Assembly (NCBI RefSeq): GCF_000008665.1
Contig: NC_000917.1
Location: forward strand, 1,350,001-1,382,000
Origin: Archaeoglobus fulgidus DSM 4304
Lineage (GTDB): Archaea; Halobacteriota; Archaeoglobi; Archaeoglobales; Archaeoglobaceae
Direction: 5' to 3'
DNA: 32,000 nucleotides
The position numbers and the translations under genes are program-made. The notes under the pieces are model-generated. The model had not been told where the DNA came from and did not search any database. It saw nothing but the letters and a program-made list of their open reading frames with translations. Positions 3,925 to 19,466 of this stretch are shown one piece after another. Numbering within the stretch: position 1 is the first letter of the stretch; each line of letters starts with the position of its first letter.

Positions 3925-4792
3925 CGTACTTCCCGTCTTCTTTTCTTACCCTCCCTTCCATTTCGAGCTTTTCGATGTGCTTCTCAATCATAACCCTCTC
4001 AAAGAAGTCCAGTATCTCCTTTGCGTAGGGCTTTCTCCCGTAAATGGGGGAAAGCTCGACGAGCTCATCCAAGCTCTTCGGTTCCTCAAGAAGACTTAGA
4101 ATTATCTCTTCCCTCTCTTTTATCTTCCTCTTGAACTCCAAGATTCTTCCCTCAGCCTCCTCCTTTCCGAATACTGGCTTCGAATGGGCCGACACGAAAA
4201 TCTCGAAGTCGATGTCGAGGAGCTTGTCCATTTCCCTCTCAAAGAGGTAGGGATCTGCTTCTGGATTCCCGTAGAAGGGTCCAAAGGAGGTTAAATCAAC
4301 ATCGGCCCCAAAAAGAACCTTCTGCTCGATCAGAAAAACGTGGTGGTCCATGGTGTGACCTTTAACGGGTACTGCAACTATTTCGGGCTCCTTTACAACA
4401 ACACCCTCCTCGTATCTTTCACACTCAAACTCCCTCAGCCCTGTGGCGGCGCTTATAAACCTCTTCCAGCTTTCTACCAAATCGGGTGCAACAAAGCGCC
4501 TTGCGAGGGTGTCGAGCGTAATCCTGCCCTCCGCAGGAGCCAGGACGTCTTTAAAGAGCCATGCACCACTGGAATGATCAGGGTGGAGGTGGGAAAGGAC
4601 TAGCAAGCTCGCGTTGACTTTCCTCATAACCTCAAGTCCTGCTCCGGCGTCGATAACCACATCCCCAACCACGACAACGTTGCAGTAGGGAAATCTCCCC
4701 CCGTTCATACCCTCGATAACTCTAACACCTCTCATTACTTCCATTGCATTCCCCAACAACTTATTGTTGAAAACACTATCGAACGCGGCCAA
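3914..4792 (-). CDS. MBL-fold metallo-hydrolase
   Basis: HxHxDH motif in LSHLHPDHSSG, followed by GHTMDH. The start is uncertain: the track start 4792 is TTG, and ATG 4744 (MEVMRGVRVIEG...) is an equally good candidate. The 3' end overlaps aroA convergently by 11 nt. Confidence 0.8.
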   Translation of the reverse strand: MAAFDSVFNNKLLGNAMEVMRGVRVIEGMNGGRFPYCNVVVVGDVVIDAGAGLEVMRKVNASLLVLSHLHPDHSSGAWLFKDVLAPAEGRITLDTLARRFVAPDLVESWKRFISAATGLREFECERYEEGVVVKEPEIVAVPVKGHTMDHHVFLIEQKVLFGADVDLTSFGPFYGNPEADPYLFEREMDKLLDIDFEIFVSAHSKPVFGKEEAEGRILEFKRKIKEREEIILSLLEEPKSLDELVELSPIYGRKPYAKEILDFFERVMIEKHIEKLEMEGRVRKEDGKYVRV

Positions 4793-4832
4793 GCAGTTGA
4801 AGAAGGAAAGGAGTCTGCTCGGAAACGCGTAT

Positions 4833-5537
4833 ATGGCTGCCCTTCTGTTCTACATTTCAGCTATCTTCGTTCCTGAGGCAATATGGCTTCTCTGGAGCTT
4901 CCCACACTGGGAAACCATGCATGTATGGAATTCTCTCAGCGAGATACCCACCGCCTATGTTACGGCTTTCATTTCTGGAGACGCTTTGCTCGCTGTAATC
5001 GGCTTCTGGGTTGCAGCAAAGCTAATAAGGTCCGGGAGAGATTACGCAGCCCACATCCAGTGGATAGCCGGATACTTCGCCTTTTTCTTCGTTTTGGCTC
5101 ACGGATGGGATGGAACGGGATGGCAGAGGTTCACTTGGGACCCCACGGTGACGGGCATGCCATGGGAGCCGGGGAGAACGATGTGGGTGGATTTTGCAAC
5201 GAGCAACGTTGCCATTACGCTTTACGCAATGGCCCTGCCGACGATAGTCCCGATGATTGCTGGAGGCTACATCTGGCTCAGGAACGGTCACATTCTTGCA
5301 GGTTTGGATGGGGCAAGAGCCTCCAGTTTGGCTGTGAAGGGAGTTGCTATATATCTCCTCGGAGTCTTCGTGGCTTTTCTGATGGCCGCGTGTGCGACAG
5401 TAATTTCGCTGCACCTCACCACGCAGGCAGGGATGCTGGTTGGAGTGATTGTCACAATTACCGTAGCCTACGCTCTGGCCTTCAGAAGGGGAGGAATTCT
5501 TCAAACCGCAATTTCTAGAGGATTTAACTTGACATAA
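4833..5537 (+). CDS. Polytopic membrane protein, unknown function
   Basis: About 6-7 hydrophobic segments and Trp-rich loops (GWDGTGWQRFTWDPTVTGMPWEPG). The track start 4764 is TTG, so I moved it to the first ATG (4833, MAALLFYISA). No clear promoter or SD is visible, so the start remains uncertain. Confidence 0.6.
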   Translation: MAALLFYISAIFVPEAIWLLWSFPHWETMHVWNSLSEIPTAYVTAFISGDALLAVIGFWVAAKLIRSGRDYAAHIQWIAGYFAFFFVLAHGWDGTGWQRFTWDPTVTGMPWEPGRTMWVDFATSNVAITLYAMALPTIVPMIAGGYIWLRNGHILAGLDGARASSLAVKGVAIYLLGVFVAFLMAACATVISLHLTTQAGMLVGVIVTITVAYALAFRRGGILQTAISRGFNLT

Positions 5538-5552
5538 CTTTTAAATAGTTAT

Positions 5553-5560
5553 TTTTATAA
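5553..5560 (+). promoter_or_regulatory. TATA box of the Roadblock operon (leaderless)
   Basis: ttttataa is centred 26.5 nt upstream of ATG 5583. Confidence 0.5.
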
Positions 5561-5582
5561 CACTTTTATTGCTGGTGATAAC

Positions 5583-5927
5583 ATGTTCGAAAACGTGATA
5601 GCCGATATGCTCAGTGTTAATGGTGTTAAAGGTGTGTACATCGTTGATGCTGAGGGGGCCCTGATCGAGGCCGAGTCGATTTTTTCTGACGATGATGAGG
5701 TCTATGCTGCCCTGATTGCCGACGCTTTTAACAAAGCCTCAGAAGTTTTGAGTAAAATATCCTCCGATGAGCCGGAGCTTTTGATGATAGACGGTAAAAA
5801 AGACCGGATTGTGGCTTCAAGGGCGGGGGACTTAATCTTCGGCATAATTGCCGACCAGAAAACCAATTATGGATTGCTGAAAATAGAAATCAAAAAGGCG
5901 GTTGAAAAAATAACGGCCATGGTGTAG
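5583..5927 (+). CDS. Roadblock/LC7 (MglB-like) domain protein
   Basis: 114 aa. VNGVKGVYIVDAEGALIEAES and LLMIDGKKDRIVASRAGDLIFGIIAD fit the Roadblock/LC7 alpha-beta-alpha pattern. Confidence 0.8.
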   Translation: MFENVIADMLSVNGVKGVYIVDAEGALIEAESIFSDDDEVYAALIADAFNKASEVLSKISSDEPELLMIDGKKDRIVASRAGDLIFGIIADQKTNYGLLKIEIKKAVEKITAMV

Positions 5928-5931
5928 AGCT

Positions 5932-6675
5932 ATGATGATTCCGAAGGGAGAGGTAGTGGAGCTTGGCAAGAGGGGGAACTTCAGAGACATTCTTAAGGAA
6001 TTATCCGCTACGGGGTTTACCGGCTATTTGGAGGTCTCGTACAAAAAAGGAGAGCTTTCCAGGGCCAAGGTACTTTTTAGCAACGGTAAAATTGTTGCTG
6101 CCGGTATCAAGAGGGTGATAAGCAAAAGTGAAATCGTAGGAGAAAAGGCGCTTGAAGAGTTGCTCGGCCTTGAAAGCTGTGTTGTTGACGTCTACGCCCT
6201 CGATGAAGGAAAGGTGGCAAAGGCTCTCGAGTGGAACAGGAATGCTGTGGTGGAGCACCTCCCCGAAACGGAGGTTGAGGTAGAGGGTGGGCTGACAGAG
6301 GAGATTATAACCACCCCCGACGAGAGGGAAGCAATTCTCAAAAAGTACGGAATAAAAATGCCTTCCGAAGAAGAGATCGACCAGATAATCATGAACGCCC
6401 TCGATGGCAGCTACGATGTCATTGCCGCCACAACCTCTGCTCCCGGCGATTTCGAATCCCTCAAGAATTCGCTTATAAGCACGGCCGAGCTTTATCTCGG
6501 AAAAATGTCCAAGAAGGTTGTTGATGTGATAAACGACTGCAAGTCGGCTGAGGAGCTTGTGGAGAGGTTTGACGAAATTAGAAGCGCTGCAAAATCTTTG
6601 GTCATTTTCATCCCGAGGAAAAAAATAGATGAGATGCTCTCCGAAATGGAGAGGCTAATCGGGGAGAGTATTTAA
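5932..6675 (+). CDS. DUF4388/DUF2226-like protein with acidic linker and helical C-terminal module
   Basis: 247 aa, starting 4 nt after the Roadblock stop. The N-terminus GNFRDILKELSATGFTGYLEV...VLFSNGKIVAA...GEKALEELL follows the DUF4388 (PATAN-associated) pattern. A Glu-rich linker and a helical tail follow. Confidence 0.6.
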   Translation: MMIPKGEVVELGKRGNFRDILKELSATGFTGYLEVSYKKGELSRAKVLFSNGKIVAAGIKRVISKSEIVGEKALEELLGLESCVVDVYALDEGKVAKALEWNRNAVVEHLPETEVEVEGGLTEEIITTPDEREAILKKYGIKMPSEEEIDQIIMNALDGSYDVIAATTSAPGDFESLKNSLISTAELYLGKMSKKVVDVINDCKSAEELVERFDEIRSAAKSLVIFIPRKKIDEMLSEMERLIGESI

Positions 6676-6878
6676 CCCTCTTTTTCAAGCCTTTCCTCGA
6701 CTATTTCGACATACTCCCTAAGCTCCTTGTTCATTTTCAGAACGCTGAGAATTTCCTTGTAGTTTGAGTCGTCCACGTCATCGTAGCCCAAACTTTCCAT
6801 TGCCTTGTTCAGGAAGATTTTTGCGATCGGCCCGATTTCCTTTTTGAGCTCATCTAAAAGTTTTTTGTAGGTTATCAT
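6672..6878 (-). CDS. 68-aa all-helical protein, unknown function
   Basis: Its start overlaps the stop of the HAMP gene (ATGA, 6875-6878). Its stop shares TTAA (6672-6675) with the convergent gene. LLDELKKEIGPIAKIFLNKAMESLG is a predicted helical hairpin. Confidence 0.6.
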   Translation of the reverse strand: MITYKKLLDELKKEIGPIAKIFLNKAMESLGYDDVDDSNYKEILSVLKMNKELREYVEIVEERLEKEG

Positions 6879-7891
6879 TTCAGTGCCTCCTCAAGGCTCT
6901 CCATGGCGACCTTGAGGCTCCTTCTCAGCCTTTCGATACTCTTTGCAAGAATACCGATTTCATCAGCCCTGTTCTGGTGCGGAACCTCAGCCTCAAGGTT
7001 TCCTTCGGCAATCTTGTCGGCAGTGTTGCTCAGCTCGATTATGGGTCTCGTAATGGTCGAGGTTGTGAACACCGCCAGAACGATGACGAAAACTATAGCA
7101 ATTGCCGCTGCAATACCCAAAGCGTAGTAAACCTGCTGAATTGCACCCTCAACACTCTTGCTTATCTCACTGGCGATGTTCTCTGCAGGATTGGCGGGGT
7201 TCTGGGTGAGGTACTGGAAGTAACCGTCGATGTAGGCTGAGGTTCCCACAACAACCCACAGCTGACCCTTGGAAATCGGGTCATAGACCTTTATGGTCGT
7301 GGGATAGTGGCAGAGATATTTCGGAATTTCTTCCTTTTCAGGTGTTTCGGGGTCATCCCAGTGGTAATAGCCACAAACCGGCTTTGGAGCTTCAGGGTTT
7401 TCGGTTATTTTGAGGAGCAGGTTGTAAAGCTCAGGCATTGTTTCGTTCCATCTCAGCATCGCAACGTCAACACCAAGGTACTTTTCGTACTGTCCGGTGA
7501 AGGCGGGATGCGTTAGGATAACTGCCACATCCCTACCCGCAACTTTGTTACCAGCACCAACCCAGGTGTACTCCTTCGCACCCCAGCGTTGTGCTCCAAG
7601 ACTTCTGAACTTCGGGTCTTGAATTAAGTCAAAGGTTGTGAGCATGGTTTTGTTCTCGAGTTTCATCTTTGCCTCAATGTAGGTCTGAACTGCCAAGGCC
7701 AAATCCTGTGCCTTCATCCTGACAGCTTCCTCACCGGCCTTGGTCAGGTATTCCTGGCTGACTGTTGTAACGCCCTGCTTCGCCTCTTCAGCAGAGGATG
7801 TCATCCCAGCTATGGTAAGATAACCAAGAACGCTCAGGGGCACAAGGCTTGCAACAACCACTATCAAAACAATTTGGGGCGTCAACTTCAT
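6875..7891 (-). CDS. Two-TM receptor with extracytoplasmic Cache-like domain and HAMP domain, no output domain
   Basis: TM1 is IVLIVVVASLVPLSVLGYLTIAG. An outside domain of about 230 aa follows, then TM2 (LGIAAAIAIVFVIVLAVFTT). The HAMP domain is ITRPIIELSNTADKIAEGNLEAEV...ADEIGILAKSIERLRRSL, and the protein ends 15 aa later. Confidence 0.8.
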   Translation of the reverse strand: MKLTPQIVLIVVVASLVPLSVLGYLTIAGMTSSAEEAKQGVTTVSQEYLTKAGEEAVRMKAQDLALAVQTYIEAKMKLENKTMLTTFDLIQDPKFRSLGAQRWGAKEYTWVGAGNKVAGRDVAVILTHPAFTGQYEKYLGVDVAMLRWNETMPELYNLLLKITENPEAPKPVCGYYHWDDPETPEKEEIPKYLCHYPTTIKVYDPISKGQLWVVVGTSAYIDGYFQYLTQNPANPAENIASEISKSVEGAIQQVYYALGIAAAIAIVFVIVLAVFTTSTITRPIIELSNTADKIAEGNLEAEVPHQNRADEIGILAKSIERLRRSLKVAMESLEEALK

Positions 7892-8484
7892 CTCCTAACC
7901 ACCTCCACAAAGTCGTTAACCTTAACACCAAGCTTCTCCCTAACCCACGTGGGGACAACAATAAATCCCTCCTTGGAGTAGGGTAAAACCCTCAGGTTCA
8001 CGGTTCCATTTTTCTTAACGCTCACGTACTCACCCTCTTTGACGCCAATGGCGTTCATGATGTCCTCCGCCAGAAAAGCAACGTCGCTTCCCTCATAATC
8101 GTACTTTTGTGTGAAGGTGAGGTCAACACCAACCTTCGTCTTTGCCGCACCCGTTATGGTTGATATTGTTTTTTCAATTTCTTTTTCGGCTTTTGAGACC
8201 TCTTCCTCGACCGAGGCTATTTCCTGCCTGACGTCATTAACTGTTTTCTTGGCCTCAACCTGTCCTGTTGACCCTTTCTCCCTCAGATACCTCCCTATTT
8301 CTATGATCATCTGTTCTGGTGGAAGCTTCACGAACTCTTCCAGAACATCATCGGGTATTATTCCTTTATAAACTTCTCTAATCTCGTAGGATTTTAACTT
8401 TGCTTCAAGCTCCTTGACTTTTTCTTGAAGTTCTCTGATAATAGCCTCTTTCTCTGCCAGCAATTTTTGACATTCGTCGTCCAT
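7888..8484 (-). CDS. Coiled-coil protein with C-terminal VAT-N/AbrB-like (cradle-loop barrel) domain
   Basis: I trimmed the track GTG 8493 to ATG 8484, which follows GGAGG after an 8-nt spacer. The N-terminal part has heptad-rich helices (LLAEKEAIIRELQEKVKELEAKLK; EEEVSKAEKEIEKT). The C-terminal FLAEDIMNAIGVKEGEYVSVKK...VVPTWVREKLGVKVNDFVEV repeats the pattern lG-v-x-GD-x-V. Confidence 0.65.
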   Translation of the reverse strand: MDDECQKLLAEKEAIIRELQEKVKELEAKLKSYEIREVYKGIIPDDVLEEFVKLPPEQMIIEIGRYLREKGSTGQVEAKKTVNDVRQEIASVEEEVSKAEKEIEKTISTITGAAKTKVGVDLTFTQKYDYEGSDVAFLAEDIMNAIGVKEGEYVSVKKNGTVNLRVLPYSKEGFIVVPTWVREKLGVKVNDFVEVVRR

Positions 8485-8537
8485 GTACAACACCTCCTAA
8501 TAATTGTAATGTGTTTGGTGGTCTTCAAATAAAAACT

Positions 8538-9698
8538 TTATGCAATTAAATATGCCAAAACCACAACGGCTGTTGTTCCAACGATGTCTGTTAGCGTTGT
8601 GGTGAGTGGGATTCCGCCGTTATCTGGGTCAACACCCACTCTGTGAAGCCAGATTGAAAGCGTTGTTGAGAAGAGCAGAACGAAGGCAGCTAATGCAAGG
8701 TAAACAATCATGAAGTAAAGGAAATCTTTCGCTTCTGGAAAAGGCGCTCCTGTAAACGTGCTGGCGAAAAGAGAGGCAAGAACGTATATTGTTGGAGCTA
8801 TCACCACTGAGGTGAGAAACACGTAGGGTGCATCGCTTAGCTTTCCGACCGACAACTCCCCGAGATGCAGCTTTGTTGAGGTTCTCGCAACCATAATGCT
8901 CCCGTAGTTTCCTATGCTCCCTATTACCGCAGGATAGGCAAAGCTCAGAAACAACGCCCTGTGTATCACTTCGCTGAACTCCTGCAGAACGTTACCAGTA
9001 ATGCTCTGGATGAGCGCGAGCAGGGAAACTATCAAAAGCGTCTCCTTGTACGCTTTTCCGTCATACCCTCCCCTTATTGAAAGGTAAACAGACATTGCGA
9101 GAGCAATTACGCATGCAACGGTTGAAATCCACGCTCCTGTGTACCTTTCAAAAAGGAAGATGAAGAGCACGATTGAGGGTATTGAAACCAAGTCTGCGAA
9201 GGTCGTTACTGCTGGGCCCATTATGTTGTCCGGGTCAAGACCTCTCCTGAAGCTTCCGATTACAATTAATGCAGTCATAACAGCGAGAATTGCAGAAATT
9301 ACAACGCTGGAATCGAGAATCACCTGAAAAGATGTTGTTAACCCCTCTTTTCCGAAGAACTTCAGCGCAGCGATGAGGAAAAGAATTAGGGCGGGAATCG
9401 TCGCAGCCCAGATGCTGAAAAAGACGTTTTTTGAGACGTACTCATCCTTGATTGTTGGATCTGACGAGCCGAGGTAGAGGGATGTGGAAATCCTTGAGCC
9501 AAGAGAGCCGAAGACGTTGCCCCTCAGCCCCATCAAACCCGGAATCACGATGAGGATTTCGGGGTAGGTTGTGAGAAGCTTTTCGAAGCTGATTCCAAGG
9601 AAGATACCGGCCCCTAAGTCGAAAATAAGGCAGAGGGCTAAGGGAACAAGAACCTGCTTAAGTGCAGAAGATATTGTAAGCTCTCTCTCTGGCTGCAA
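8538..9698 (-). CDS. Tandem MgtE-type (SLC41-like) divalent cation transporter membrane protein
   Basis: 386 aa. It contains two copies of the MgtE membrane module: PGLMGLRGNVFGSLGSRIST...GLDPDNIMGPAVTTFADLVS and PAVIGSIGNYGSIMVARTST...GVDPDNGGIPLTTTLTDIVGT. The start is TTG 9698, 5 nt after GAGGTG. There is no cytosolic N or CBS domain. Confidence 0.75.
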   Translation of the reverse strand: MQPERELTISSALKQVLVPLALCLIFDLGAGIFLGISFEKLLTTYPEILIVIPGLMGLRGNVFGSLGSRISTSLYLGSSDPTIKDEYVSKNVFFSIWAATIPALILFLIAALKFFGKEGLTTSFQVILDSSVVISAILAVMTALIVIGSFRRGLDPDNIMGPAVTTFADLVSIPSIVLFIFLFERYTGAWISTVACVIALAMSVYLSIRGGYDGKAYKETLLIVSLLALIQSITGNVLQEFSEVIHRALFLSFAYPAVIGSIGNYGSIMVARTSTKLHLGELSVGKLSDAPYVFLTSVVIAPTIYVLASLFASTFTGAPFPEAKDFLYFMIVYLALAAFVLLFSTTLSIWLHRVGVDPDNGGIPLTTTLTDIVGTTAVVVLAYLIA

Positions 9699-19235: not shown

Positions 19236-19384
19236 GAATTTCCCGATAAATAATTACTATTTAAAGTTTTCCTTTCTTTTTTGATTGATTATTATACGAA
19301 TAAAACATGAGTTTTTATGCTTGCTTTTTTGGAAATTCCACAGAAGTAATTTTCCGGTAAGATTCAACAGCCAAGATACAACAG

Positions 19385-19466
19385 CGCCGGGGGTGGGATT
19401 CGAACCCACGCGGGCGAACGCCCACACGCTCTCCAGGCGTGCGCCTTACCGCTCGGCAACCCCGGC
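19385..19466 (-). tRNA. tRNA-Ser (anticodon GGA), class II, CCA not encoded
   Basis: I folded it by hand. The acceptor is GCCGGGG/CCCCGGC plus discriminator G. The D stem is 3 bp (GCC/GGC). The anticodon stem is CACGC/GCGTG with loop CTGGAGA. The long variable arm is GGGCGTTCGCCC and the T arm is GTGGG-TTCGAAT-CCCAC. Confidence 0.9.

What the first reader, a model, noticed from the sequence alone, without database searches (positions are those of the whole stretch)
5583..8493. Convergent five-gene cluster of signalling adaptors with a sensor but no enzymatic output
Two transcription units face each other so tightly that their stop codons share the tetranucleotide TTAA (6672-6675). The plus unit is leaderless (TATA 5553-5560). 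It encodes a Roadblock/LC7 protein and, 4 nt later, a 247-aa protein with a DUF4388/PATAN-associated N-terminal pattern. The minus unit is SD-led and both of its gene junctions are ATGA overlaps. It encodes a coiled-coil protein ending in a VAT-N/AbrB-like barrel, a two-TM Cache-like receptor that stops right after its HAMP domain, and a 68-aa helical protein. Roadblock/MglB proteins normally partner small Ras-like GTPases. HAMP domains normally feed a kinase, MCP or cyclase module. Neither a GTPase nor any such output is encoded here or in the flanking genes (a membrane protein on one side, an MgtE-like transporter on the other). The helical tail of the 247-aa protein (SLISTAELYLGKMSKKVVDVIND) and the 68-aa protein (ELKKEIGPIAKIFLNKAMESLG) look weakly alike, which hints at a shared interaction module. 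Together this reads like a self-contained, non-canonical envelope-to-cytoplasm signalling complex that I cannot match to a described system.
Basis: partly seen in the sequence, partly recalled or inferred. Interest (0 to 1): 0.8.

Follow-up and report, generated by a model that had tools for sequence, protein, structure and literature searches.

The report
Af1503 receptor cluster with Roadblock partner
This is the neighbourhood of Af1503, the textbook output-less HAMP receptor of Archaeoglobus fulgidus, and across its relatives the receptor genes stay locked tail-to-tail to an orphan Roadblock/PATAN-like gene pair, which gives testable candidates for the receptor's unknown downstream partner.

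Summary
The five ORFs, the shared TTAA stops and both ATGA overlaps are real. The window is Archaeoglobus fulgidus DSM 4304, and the genes are Af1500–Af1504.

- The 338-aa receptor is Af1503, the model HAMP protein with many PDB entries.
- The 68-aa protein is Af1502, a STAC four-helix bundle (PDB 5A1Q).
- The literature already describes an "Af1505–Af1502 operon" and proposes that it regulates solute transport.

The other three proteins:
- Af1504 is a coiled coil plus a VAT-N-type double-psi β-barrel.
- Af1500 is a published orphan MglB-family Roadblock protein.
- Af1501 is DUF2226, with a PATAN-related N-domain.

I found no published account of the linkage between the two units. In 14 of 16 distinct Archaeoglobi loci carrying an Af1503-like gene, DUF2226 lies convergent and adjacent to it, usually with overlapping stops. 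This holds across at least five different flank contexts. The MgtE transporter is adjacent in only about five loci. No small GTPase or kinase lies beside the cluster genes in any of 33 fetched loci.

Not supported: the "leaderless" call, the "Cache-like" call and the Af1501-tail/Af1502 similarity.

Best reading: a receptor read out in trans by small adaptors coupled to a Roadblock/PATAN platform. The coupling is inferred, not shown.

The parts
4764..5537 (+). Af1499-family membrane protein. Context only, not part of the conserved core.
   Evidence: No family in my Pfam copy. Orthologues carry the precomputed family PF27259 AF_1499. It is adjacent only in Archaeoglobus-genus loci.
5541..5556 (+). 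Promoter-like A/T block TTAAATAGTTATTTTT upstream of the plus unit.
   Evidence: Invariant in 8 aligned loci, including loci with a different upstream gene. Function is inferred.
5574..5579 (+). GGTGAT, a Shine-Dalgarno-like motif 4 nt before the ATG of Af1500.
   Evidence: GGTGrTA is invariant in 8 loci. This argues against a leaderless mRNA.
5583..5927 (+). Af1500: Roadblock/LC7 protein of the MglB family, 114 aa, with no partner GTPase.
   Evidence: Robl_LC7 at 6.7e-20. Closest solved relatives are M. xanthus MglB at 5.8e-5 and LAMTOR2. Listed as 'AF1500 MglB>' with no coupled MglA in PMC4316618 supplement.
5932..6675 (+). Af1501: DUF2226 protein, 247 aa. It has a PATAN-related N-domain (aa 1-105), a conserved ILKKYGIxxPSEEEIDxxI hairpin (aa ~129-157) and a C-terminal helical domain (aa 174-246) with an LGKxSKK motif.
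   Evidence: DUF2226 at 1.6e-79; DUF4388 at 6.4e-5, sub-threshold. 18 of 28 family members hit DUF4388, and one member passes its cut-off. AF2 model. The C-domain occurs as a separate 71-aa ORF elsewhere.
6672..6675 (.). TTAA shared by the two convergent stop codons: TAA of Af1501 at 6673-6675 and TAA of Af1502 on the minus strand at 6672-6674.
   Evidence: Read directly. The 4-nt stop overlap is conserved in L001, L002, L004, L012-L016 and L021; the overlap is 8 nt in L006 and L007.
6672..6878 (-). Af1502: stand-alone STAC domain, a four-helix bundle of 68 aa.
   Evidence: PDB 5a1q 'AF1502' at 1.3e-38. Described in PMC4834066.
6875..7891 (-). Af1503: two-TM receptor of 338 aa that ends about 10 residues after its HAMP domain.
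   Evidence: P0063 is 100% identical and lies on a 2,178,400-bp contig. PDB 4cq4 covers aa 30-338 and differs only in the engineered TM2; about 16 further Af1503 entries were found.
6911..7066 (-). HAMP domain of Af1503 (aa 276-327).
   Evidence: PF00672 at 1.4e-12. PDB 2l7h, 2y0q and others cover aa 278-331.
7888..8484 (-). Af1504: 198 aa from ATG 8484 (201 aa from the ORF-list GTG at 8493). It has an N-terminal coiled-coil helix (aa 2-39), a small helical region, a low-confidence helix and a C-terminal double-psi beta-barrel (aa 112-198, window 7891-8151).
   Evidence: CDC48_N at 1.4e-6 and AbrB at 3.8e-5, both sub-threshold. AF2 pLDDT 78. Foldseek matches DPBB domains of VCP-like ATPases at E down to 1.6e-7 and designed barrels at 2.5e-8. 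Orthologues start MDDEC.
8491..8497 (-). GGAGGTG Shine-Dalgarno motif 6 nt upstream of ATG 8484.
   Evidence: Read directly. Conserved in orthologous loci.
8525..8539 (-). AAAGTTTTTATTTGA, a promoter-like block upstream of Af1504 that overlaps the MgtE stop codon.
   Evidence: Conserved whether the upstream gene is MgtE or asd. Function is inferred.
8538..9698 (-). Af1505: MgtE/SLC41-type transporter. The literature treats it as the first gene of the operon, but its linkage is not conserved.
   Evidence: MgtE at 2.2e-36; PMC4834066. It is adjacent only in the window, L002/L003/L016, L012, L013 and weakly L015. It is absent in L001, L004-L007, L014, L018, L019 and L021.

Best explanation
The locus is Af1500-Af1504 of Archaeoglobus fulgidus.

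Shown:
- Af1503 is a dimeric transmembrane sensor whose only cytoplasmic part is a HAMP four-helix bundle.
- It is translationally coupled (ATGA overlaps) upstream to Af1504, a coiled coil plus a VAT-N-type double-psi barrel.
- It is coupled in the same way downstream to Af1502, a STAC four-helix bundle.
- Facing it, with overlapping stop codons, is an ancient archaeal gene pair: Af1500 (MglB-family Roadblock) and Af1501 (DUF2226, with a PATAN-related N-domain and a helical C-domain).

Inferred:
- Because the HAMP domain has no covalent output, its conformational state is read in trans by these small cytosolic proteins.
- Af1502, the Af1504 coiled coil and/or the C-terminal helical module of Af1501 would bind the receptor in a state-dependent way.
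- That binding would recruit or release the Roadblock/PATAN platform at the membrane.
- Platforms of this kind act elsewhere on P-loop NTPases that position or drive surface machinery.
- The final effector is encoded elsewhere. It could be an NTPase, or a transporter such as the MgtE next door.
For: Identity of the parts.

Gene-order conservation:
- Of 16 distinct Archaeoglobi loci with an Af1503-like gene, 14 have DUF2226 convergent and adjacent, 15 have STAC, 12 have Af1504 and 12 have Roadblock.
- The junction persists down to 35-40% identity of the DUF2226 protein.
- It persists across at least five flank contexts: Af1499/MgtE; Af1499/asd; Hef helicase/asd; a Cas4-like gene/IleRS; and acyl-CoA dehydrogenase/oxidoreductase.
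- It persists where other members are lost. L018 and L019 keep only DUF2226 facing STAC and the receptor. L011 keeps Af1504 and the receptor facing DUF2226 and Roadblock, without STAC.
- Among GTDB species representatives, 8 of 10 Archaeoglobi DUF2226 loci carry the receptor next door.
- MgtE is adjacent in only about 5 loci.

Transcription signals: each unit keeps its own conserved promoter-like block and SD motif.

The Af1501 C-domain is an autonomous module of about 70 aa. It is a separate ORF in L026-L028, matching the domain HMM at E 4e-6.

NTPase context elsewhere: DUF2226 genes outside Archaeoglobi sit next to MinD/ParA ATPases (L022-L024), and once next to PilB/FlaI-type T2SSE plus T2SSF genes (L025).

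Precedents: the Roadblock-PATAN association and the conservon (sensor plus Roadblock) are published. In CbrA, STAC docks on the cytoplasmic face of a membrane domain.
Against: - No physical interaction has been shown or modelled. No multimer prediction was available.
- Both units also occur alone. Roadblock-DUF2226 occurs without the receptor in L017, L020 and L025-L032. Receptor-STAC pairs occur without it in L008-L010, and one of these lies in the same MAG as a full cluster (L010 and L015).
- Convergent genes are not co-transcribed. Conservation within one class could partly reflect slow rearrangement and the difficulty of separating overlapping stop codons.
- The proposed docking role of the Af1501 C-domain has no statistical support. 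hhalign against Af1502 gives 1.3%, and Foldseek finds no PDB match at E<=1e-3, 5A1Q included.
- The downstream NTPase is unidentified, and none lies in the 32-kb window.
Confidence: 0.42

Rival explanations
1. There are two independent systems that happen to be neighbours. Af1504-Af1503-Af1502, with or without Af1505, is a transport-regulating sensor as proposed by Korycinski, Hartmann and Lupas: the STAC protein relays the receptor state to a membrane transporter. Af1500-Af1501 is a separate Roadblock/PATAN module serving some other NTPase.
For: - The published hypothesis and operon description.
- STAC docks under the SLC5 transporter in the CbrA cryo-EM structure.
- MgtE lies 44-53 nt upstream on the same strand in A. 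fulgidus and in four or five related loci.
- Receptor-STAC paralogue pairs lacking Roadblock/DUF2226 sit near ABC-transporter genes.
- The Roadblock-DUF2226 pair is widespread without any receptor.
- The two units have separate promoters.
Against: - MgtE is absent from most cluster-bearing loci, where asd or IleRS lies directly upstream of Af1504.
- The DUF2226 junction is kept in 14 of 16 loci, including loci that have lost Roadblock and Af1504.
- This reading leaves Af1504 unexplained.
- It is not exclusive with the main explanation.
Confidence: 0.35
2. It is a degraded MglA/MglB-type or conservon-type system that has lost its small GTPase and/or kinase module, and is therefore non-functional or vestigial.
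For: - Af1500 belongs to the MglB family, and A. veneficus has a coupled MglA-MglB pair.
- In the conservon, a HAMP-bearing membrane sensor kinase is paired with a Roadblock protein and a GTPase.
Against: - No small GTPase or kinase lies beside the cluster genes in any of 33 loci.
- All five proteins are well conserved over long divergence: STAC is 59-95% identical and Roadblock 59-93%.
- The translational-coupling overlaps are intact.
- 328 of 749 MglB homologues are orphans, so orphan status is common and is not a mark of decay.
- Af1503-like receptors end at the HAMP domain in all 37 homologue clusters.
Confidence: 0.05
3. Af1504 is the output. It would be an AbrB-like DNA-binding transcription factor that the HAMP receptor sequesters at or releases from the membrane.
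For: - Sub-threshold AbrB family hit (TIGR01439 at 3.8e-5, 23.3 against 28.3 bits) and a MazE_antitoxin hit.
- Translational coupling to Af1503.
- Af1504 is present in 12 of 16 receptor loci.
Against: - The model is a single-chain double-psi barrel of the VAT-N/Cdc48-N type, not a swapped-hairpin dimer. That fold class binds proteins or peptides in AAA+ N-domains (established knowledge).
- Af1504 is missing in L018, L019 and L008-L010, where the receptor persists.
Confidence: 0.08

Closest known systems
Af1505-Af1502 operon: the Af1503 HAMP receptor plus the Af1502 STAC protein (Hulko et al. 2006; Korycinski et al. 2015; PMC4834066)
   Same: It is the same DNA. The receptor and the 68-aa protein are Af1503 and Af1502 themselves. 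The literature already notes the missing effector module, the translational coupling and the receptor-STAC pairing.
   Different: The published operon includes MgtE and proposes transport regulation. It does not mention Af1500 or Af1501, at least in the literature I could read. Here MgtE linkage is weak across relatives, while linkage to Roadblock/DUF2226 is strong.
Actinobacterial conservon (CvnA sensor kinase, CvnB Roadblock, CvnC, CvnD GTPase)
   Same: A membrane sensor with a HAMP domain is encoded together with a Roadblock/MglB-family protein and a protein of unknown function. It is thought to form a membrane-associated heterocomplex.
   Different: This locus has no kinase catalytic domain on the sensor and no GTPase. 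The partner of unknown function is DUF2226/PATAN-like rather than CvnC. The units are convergent rather than in one operon.
MglA/MglB polarity switch with PATAN-domain partners (Myxococcus, Thermus; Makarova et al. 2006)
   Same: A Roadblock protein closest in sequence to MglB is encoded next to a PATAN-related protein. That association is already described.
   Different: No MglA-family GTPase is encoded at the locus, and none is listed for the A. fulgidus genome. In archaeal relatives the neighbouring NTPases are MinD/ParA-type or PilB/FlaI-type instead.
SLC5-STAC-histidine kinase transceptors (CbrA, CrbS)
   Same: A STAC four-helix bundle lies between a membrane module and cytoplasmic signalling.
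   Different: Here STAC is a free 68-aa protein, the membrane module is a HAMP receptor rather than a transporter, and there is no kinase.
VAT/Cdc48/p97 N-domain (double-psi beta-barrel sub-domain)
   Same: The fold of the Af1504 C-terminal domain: target TM about 0.8, rmsd about 2 A, and 17-27% identity to the archaeal VCP-like-ATPase barrels.
   Different: There is no AAA+ ATPase and no second beta-clam sub-domain. The barrel is attached to a coiled coil and encoded with a receptor.

Membership tests
HAMP domain receptors (Pfam PF00672); specifically Af1503 | A HAMP domain immediately after TM2, and sequence identity to the crystallised or NMR-solved protein. | tested here: met
   PF00672 scores 48.1 bits against a 25-bit cut-off, over aa 276-327. 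PDB 4cq4 aligns over aa 30-338 and is identical outside the engineered TM2; 2l7h and others also match. P0063 is 100% identical on a 2.18-Mb contig.
Two-component sensor kinases, MCPs and cyclases | A cytoplasmic output module (HisKA/HATPase_c, MCPsignal, GGDEF and so on) after the HAMP domain. | tested here: not met
   The protein ends 11 residues after the HAMP match. NCBIfam kinase and MCP models match only the TM2-HAMP stretch, far below their cut-offs. Full-length homologues are 322-354 aa.
Cache / PDC sensor domains | A sequence match to a Cache family, or a PDC fold in the extracytoplasmic domain. | tested here: inconclusive
   No Cache family appears at E<=1.
STAC domain | A four-helix bundle of about 70 aa with an LGPx(x)A motif, coupled to Af1503-like receptors or SLC5 kinases. 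| tested here: met
   Identical to PDB 5a1q 'AF1502' (1.3e-38). The IGPIAK motif is present. It is coupled to the receptor by an ATGA overlap. Defined as the family exemplar in PMC4834066.
STAC domain (candidate: C-terminal domain of Af1501) | Detectable homology or fold match to STAC. | tested here: not met
   hhalign of A2 against A3 gives probability 1.3% over 13 columns. An HMM of Af1502 orthologues hits no DUF2226 protein. A PDB profile search and Foldseek do not return 5a1q. Caveat: Af1502 is itself reported to be undetectable from other STACs by sequence.
Roadblock/LC7 (PF03259); MglB family | A Robl_LC7 domain match. | tested here: met
   71.1 bits against a 23-bit cut-off. The closest PDB relatives are MglB and LAMTOR2. 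Listed as MglB family in the PMC4316618 supplement.
MglA/MglB GTPase-GAP system | An MglA-family small GTPase encoded within a few genes. | tested here: not met
   No P-loop small GTPase lies in the 32-kb window or next to any orthologue. AF1500 is listed as uncoupled, and no A. fulgidus MglA is listed. The NCBIfam MglB equivalog scores 14 bits against a cut-off of 200.
DUF2226 (PF09987) | A full-length match above the gathering score. | tested here: met
   267.4 bits against a 22-bit cut-off, over aa 1-241. The family has only 68 representatives at E<=1e-3 among 1.84 billion proteins.
PATAN domain (DUF4388, PF14332) | A match above the gathering score. | tested here: inconclusive
   Af1501 scores 23.4 against 25 bits. 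18 of 28 diverse DUF2226 proteins hit it at E<=0.1, with a best of 3.3e-6, and no other family recurs. The second N-type domain of P0154 passes at 31 bits. No solved PATAN relative was found.
Double-psi beta-barrel of the Cdc48/VAT N-domain (PF02359) | The DPBB fold, or a sequence match above the cut-off. | tested here: met
   The sequence is sub-threshold in A. fulgidus (28.8 against 35.1 bits), but PF02359 is on record for most orthologues. The fold matches: Foldseek E 1.6e-7 to 7dg9 and 3.7e-7 to 7dg7, with target TM 0.78-0.81 and rmsd 2.1-2.2 A.
AbrB/SpoVT swapped-hairpin transcription factors | A match above the cut-off, or a swapped-hairpin dimer fold. | tested here: not met
   TIGR01439 scores 23.3 against 28.3 bits. 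The model is a single-chain DPBB, and the top 50 structural matches are DPBB proteins.
Conservon (CvnA-D) | A four-gene unit with a sensor kinase, Roadblock, CvnC (DUF742) and an MglA-group-2 GTPase. | tested here: not met
   Only the Roadblock component and a HAMP-bearing membrane sensor are present. There is no kinase domain, no DUF742 and no GTPase.

The most novel reading that the evidence does not exclude
Af1503-type HAMP-only receptors would signal through a non-covalent adaptor complex to a GTPase-less Roadblock/PATAN platform. This would be an archaeal, conservon-like or Ragulator-like membrane signalling assembly. In it, the autonomous helical module of about 70 aa at the C-terminus of Af1501 (a separate ORF in other archaea) acts as a STAC-like receptor-docking element. 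The platform in turn would control a MinD/ParA- or PilB/FlaI-type ATPase encoded elsewhere. That would supply the long-missing output of the most-studied HAMP domain and the first function for an orphan MglB.
Probability: 0.22. Interest if true: 0.75.

Novelty: new variant of a known kind. Interest (0 to 1): 0.5.

Why it matters
Af1503 has been the structural reference for HAMP signalling since 2006. It has many PDB entries and was a CASP14 showcase target. Even so, what it senses and what it signals to are unknown, because it has no output domain.

The published idea points to the neighbouring MgtE transporter via the STAC protein. The comparative data here show a different pattern. The MgtE linkage is patchy. 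The receptor genes are instead consistently locked to an orphan MglB-family Roadblock protein and a PATAN-related DUF2226 protein.

This gives concrete binding partners that can be tested with reagents that already exist: assigned HAMP NMR constructs, A291 state-locking mutants and purified Af1502. The authors of the MglB survey noted that no orphan MglB has been characterised, so this would also offer a first functional context for one.

If the coupling is real, it links HAMP receptors to Roadblock-type scaffolds without a GTPase or kinase at the locus. If it is not, the locus is simply two known modules side by side.

Tried and rejected
1. STAC homology of the Af1501 C-terminal domain was rejected as unsupported.
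   - hhalign of A2 against A3 gives 1.3%.
   - A PDB profile search does not return 5a1q.
   - Pfam shares no family between the two sets.
   - An HMM of Af1502 orthologues hits only Af1502 orthologues.
   - Foldseek of the Af1501 model finds nothing at E<=1e-3.
   - The idea is kept only as the novel case.

3. The search for related loci with very diverse DUF2226 alignments failed because no stretch was conserved enough. Narrower alignments worked.

4. A search for a hidden GTPase or MinD in the window found only three weak Walker-A-like motifs in unrelated ORFs. The neighbours are housekeeping genes.

5. Af1504 as an AbrB-like transcription factor was rejected on fold.

6. Literature searches for DUF2226, DUF8082, and AF1500, AF1501 or AF1504 returned nothing relevant. 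The primary STAC paper (J Mol Biol 2015) is not held, so I cannot exclude that it mentions the Roadblock neighbours.

7. Rfam and tRNA scans found only one tRNA-Ser, far from the locus.

8. My Pfam copy lacks the newest families (PF26309 DUF8082, PF27259 AF_1499), which appear only in the precomputed annotations.

Full report
**What is in the sequence**

- The five ORFs are at the stated coordinates.
  - Plus strand: 5583-5927 (114 aa) and, 4 nt later, 5932-6675 (247 aa).
  - Minus strand: 7888-8493 (201 aa from a GTG), 6875-7891 (338 aa) and 6672-6878 (68 aa).
- The two units end on the shared tetranucleotide TTAA at 6672-6675. Both minus-strand junctions are ATGA overlaps, read as TCAT on the + strand at 6875-6878 and 7888-7891.
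- Orthologues of the 201-aa protein begin MDDEC, and GGAGGTG lies 6 nt before ATG 8484. The true product is therefore probably 198 aa.

**Identity**

- The 338-aa protein is 100% identical to a protein on a 2,178,400-bp contig named Archaeoglobus.
- It aligns end to end with PDB 4cq4, "engineered version of transmembrane receptor AF1503". It also matches about 16 further Af1503 HAMP entries.
- The window is therefore A. fulgidus DSM 4304, and the receptor is Af1503. Af1503 gave the first HAMP structure and was CASP14 target T1100.
- The 68-aa protein is Af1502, PDB 5A1Q.
- The CASP11 target paper describes Af1503-like receptors as "lacking a recognizable effector module". It says they are genomically coupled to 60-90-residue STAC proteins. 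It names an "Af1505-Af1502 operon" starting with an MgtE/SLC41 transporter, and proposes a role in regulating solute transport.

**The other three proteins**

- Af1500 is a Roadblock/LC7 protein (6.7e-20).
  - Its closest solved relatives are M. xanthus MglB and LAMTOR2.
  - A published survey lists it as an MglB-family member with no coupled MglA. The same survey lists no MglA-family GTPase for A. fulgidus.
  - That survey found 328 of 749 MglB homologues to be orphans, none of them characterised.
- Af1501 is a full-length member of Pfam DUF2226 (1.6e-79).
  - The family is small: 68 representatives among 1.84 billion proteins.
  - Its N-domain is PATAN-related. Af1501 itself is just below the DUF4388 cut-off. 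However, 18 of 28 diverse family members hit DUF4388 and no other family recurs. One member passes the cut-off.
  - The AF2 model (pLDDT 72) has three parts: a confident alpha/beta N-domain (aa 1-105), a disordered linker holding the family's most conserved motif (ILKKYGIxxPSEEEIDxxI), and a confident helical C-domain (aa 174-246).
  - No solved structure resembles it.
- Af1504 has a long N-terminal helix (aa 2-39, pLDDT 88-96) and a C-terminal domain (aa 112-198).
  - The C-terminal domain is a double-psi beta-barrel of the VAT/Cdc48 N-domain type.
  - Foldseek E-values run from 2.5e-8 (designed barrels) to 1.6e-7 and weaker (natural VCP-like-ATPase domains), with target TM about 0.8 and rmsd about 2 A.

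**Sub-claims that did not hold**

- "Leaderless" is doubtful. Upstream of Af1500, a TTAAATAGTnATTTTT block and a GGTGrTA motif 3-9 nt before the ATG are invariant in eight loci. These include loci with a different upstream gene. A short SD-bearing leader is at least as likely.
- "Cache-like" has no sequence support. I could not test the fold.
- The resemblance between the Af1501 tail and Af1502 comes down to an hGK/hGP motif. hhalign gives probability 1.3% over 13 columns.

**Are the two units linked?**

I collected 33 loci from assemblies, GTDB species representatives and metagenomes. I scored them with blastp and phmmer. After removing near-duplicates there are 16 Archaeoglobi loci with an Af1503-like gene.

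| Gene next to the receptor | Loci out of 16 |
|---|---|
| STAC (Af1502-like) | 15 |
| DUF2226, convergent and adjacent | 14 |
| Af1504-like | 12 |
| Roadblock | 12 |
| MgtE | about 5 |

- The 4-nt stop-stop overlap is kept in the window and in nine further distinct loci (L001, L002, L004, L012-L015, L016 as a duplicate of L002, and L021). The overlap is 8 nt in L006 and L007.
- The junction survives at 35-40% identity of the DUF2226 protein.
- It survives across at least five flank contexts: Af1499/MgtE; Af1499/asd; Hef/asd; a Cas4-like gene/IleRS; and acyl-CoA dehydrogenase/oxidoreductase.
- It survives partial loss of other members. L018 and L019 keep only DUF2226 facing STAC and the receptor. 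L011 keeps Af1504 and the receptor facing DUF2226 and Roadblock, with no STAC gene.
- The block upstream of Af1504 (AAAGyTTTTATTTrA plus GGAGGTG) is conserved whether MgtE or asd lies upstream. Af1504-Af1503-Af1502 can therefore be expressed without MgtE.

Against obligatory coupling:
- Roadblock-DUF2226 pairs occur without the receptor in L017 (where an integrase gene follows), in L020, and throughout the non-Archaeoglobi members.
- Receptor-STAC pairs of 35% identity occur alone in L008-L010. One of these is in the same MAG as a full cluster (L010 and L015).

**Beyond Archaeoglobi**

- The Roadblock-DUF2226 pair is old. Roadblock lies immediately upstream of DUF2226 in L025-L028 and L030-L032.
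- None of these loci has a small GTPase or a kinase next door. The "degraded copy" criterion is therefore not met.
- The NTPases that do appear are of other kinds. MinD/ParA ATPases follow short DUF2226 genes in three loci: L022, L023 (Micrarchaeota) and L024 (Methanobacteriaceae). A PilB/FlaI-type T2SSE plus a T2SSF platform gene follow in L025.
- In L026-L028 a separate 71-aa ORF directly after DUF2226 matches the HMM of the Af1501 C-domain at E 4e-6. That domain is therefore an autonomous module in the size class of STAC proteins.

**Mechanism**

Shown:
- a HAMP-only receptor;
- translational coupling to a coiled-coil/DPBB protein and to a STAC bundle;
- conserved tail-to-tail linkage to an MglB-family Roadblock protein and a PATAN-related protein;
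- no GTPase or kinase at the locus.

Inferred:
- The HAMP state is read in trans. One or more of Af1502, the Af1504 helix and the Af1501 C-domain bind the receptor.
- The Roadblock/PATAN platform is thereby recruited or released.
- The effector lies elsewhere: an NTPase of the kind seen next to DUF2226 in other archaea, or a transporter.
- STAC docking on the cytoplasmic face of a membrane domain in CbrA and the conservon are the working precedents.

I put 0.42 on functional coupling of the two units and 0.35 on independent neighbours, with transport regulation as published. The degraded-system and AbrB-like-output readings get small weights.

**Verdict**

- The anatomy is real. The parts are known, and two are famous.
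- What appears to be new is that the Af1503 genes are tied to an orphan Roadblock/PATAN pair more faithfully than to MgtE. This offers testable candidates for the receptor's missing output.
- I could not read the primary STAC paper, so prior mention of this linkage cannot be excluded.
- Novelty: new variant of a known kind. Interest: 0.5.

Noticed in passing
L022 5534-8062; L023 7532-9981; L024 59-1474: Outside Archaeoglobi, short DUF2226 genes (about 180 aa) sit in a conserved string: NYN-domain protein, DUF2226, an unknown protein of about 150 aa, a MinD/ParA-type ATPase (GKGGVGKT) and an LSm protein. This is seen in an uncultured archaeon and a Micrarchaeota MAG, and in reduced form (DUF2226 then MinD) in a Methanobacteriaceae MAG. 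It suggests an ancestral DUF2226-MinD link.
   Followed up: partly
L025 5614-11300: A Roadblock-DUF2226 pair of the two-N-domain type is followed by a 138-aa ORF, a PilB/FlaI-like T2SSE ATPase (1.2e-38) and a T2SSF platform protein. This is one metagenomic locus only.
   Followed up: partly
L027 6813-7028 (also L028 and L026 1922-2188): A stand-alone 71-aa ORF directly after DUF2226 matches the HMM of the Af1501 C-terminal helical domain (E 4e-6). It is followed by a conserved FYVE-like zinc-ribbon protein, which is also present in L029.
   Followed up: partly
L017 8761-10201: In one Archaeoglobi MAG the cluster stops after DUF2226. A tyrosine-integrase-like gene (399 aa) follows where Af1502-Af1504 would be. 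This may be a mobile-element insertion or an assembly join.
   Followed up: no
L010 5014-6239 and L015 (same MAG, DAINRD01); L008 and L009: A second, 35%-identical Af1503-like receptor plus STAC pair exists without Roadblock, DUF2226 or Af1504. It lies near ABC-transporter permease and periplasmic-binding genes and, in L010, next to a PAS histidine kinase and two receiver proteins.
   Followed up: partly
L005 7504-8501; L015 5280-5513: There are apparent frameshifts in orthologues. The receptor is split into ORFs of 120 and 230 aa in L005, and Roadblock is truncated to 77 aa in L015. These could be sequencing errors or pseudogenes.
   Followed up: no
P0124, P0155, P0154 (DUF2226 profile hits): Three unusual architectures appeared. 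One has a DUF2226 N-domain fused to a Na/Ca-exchanger membrane domain (possibly a gene-call fusion). One has a weak CheX-like N-terminus. One has a second domain that passes the PATAN cut-off.
   Followed up: partly
window 6681-6685 and 6619-6625: Each convergent unit meets an oligo-T run (T5 on the + strand, T7 on the - strand) only inside the other unit's coding region. The two transcripts probably overlap by tens of bases at their 3' ends.
   Followed up: no
window 8484-8493: The mechanical ORF start (GTG 8493) lies inside the Shine-Dalgarno motif. ATG 8484 is the likely start. Some orthologues use TTG at that position (L012-L014).
   Followed up: yes
window 19384-19466: A single tRNA-Ser (GGA) gene on the minus strand is the only Rfam or ARAGORN hit in the window.
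   Followed up: yes
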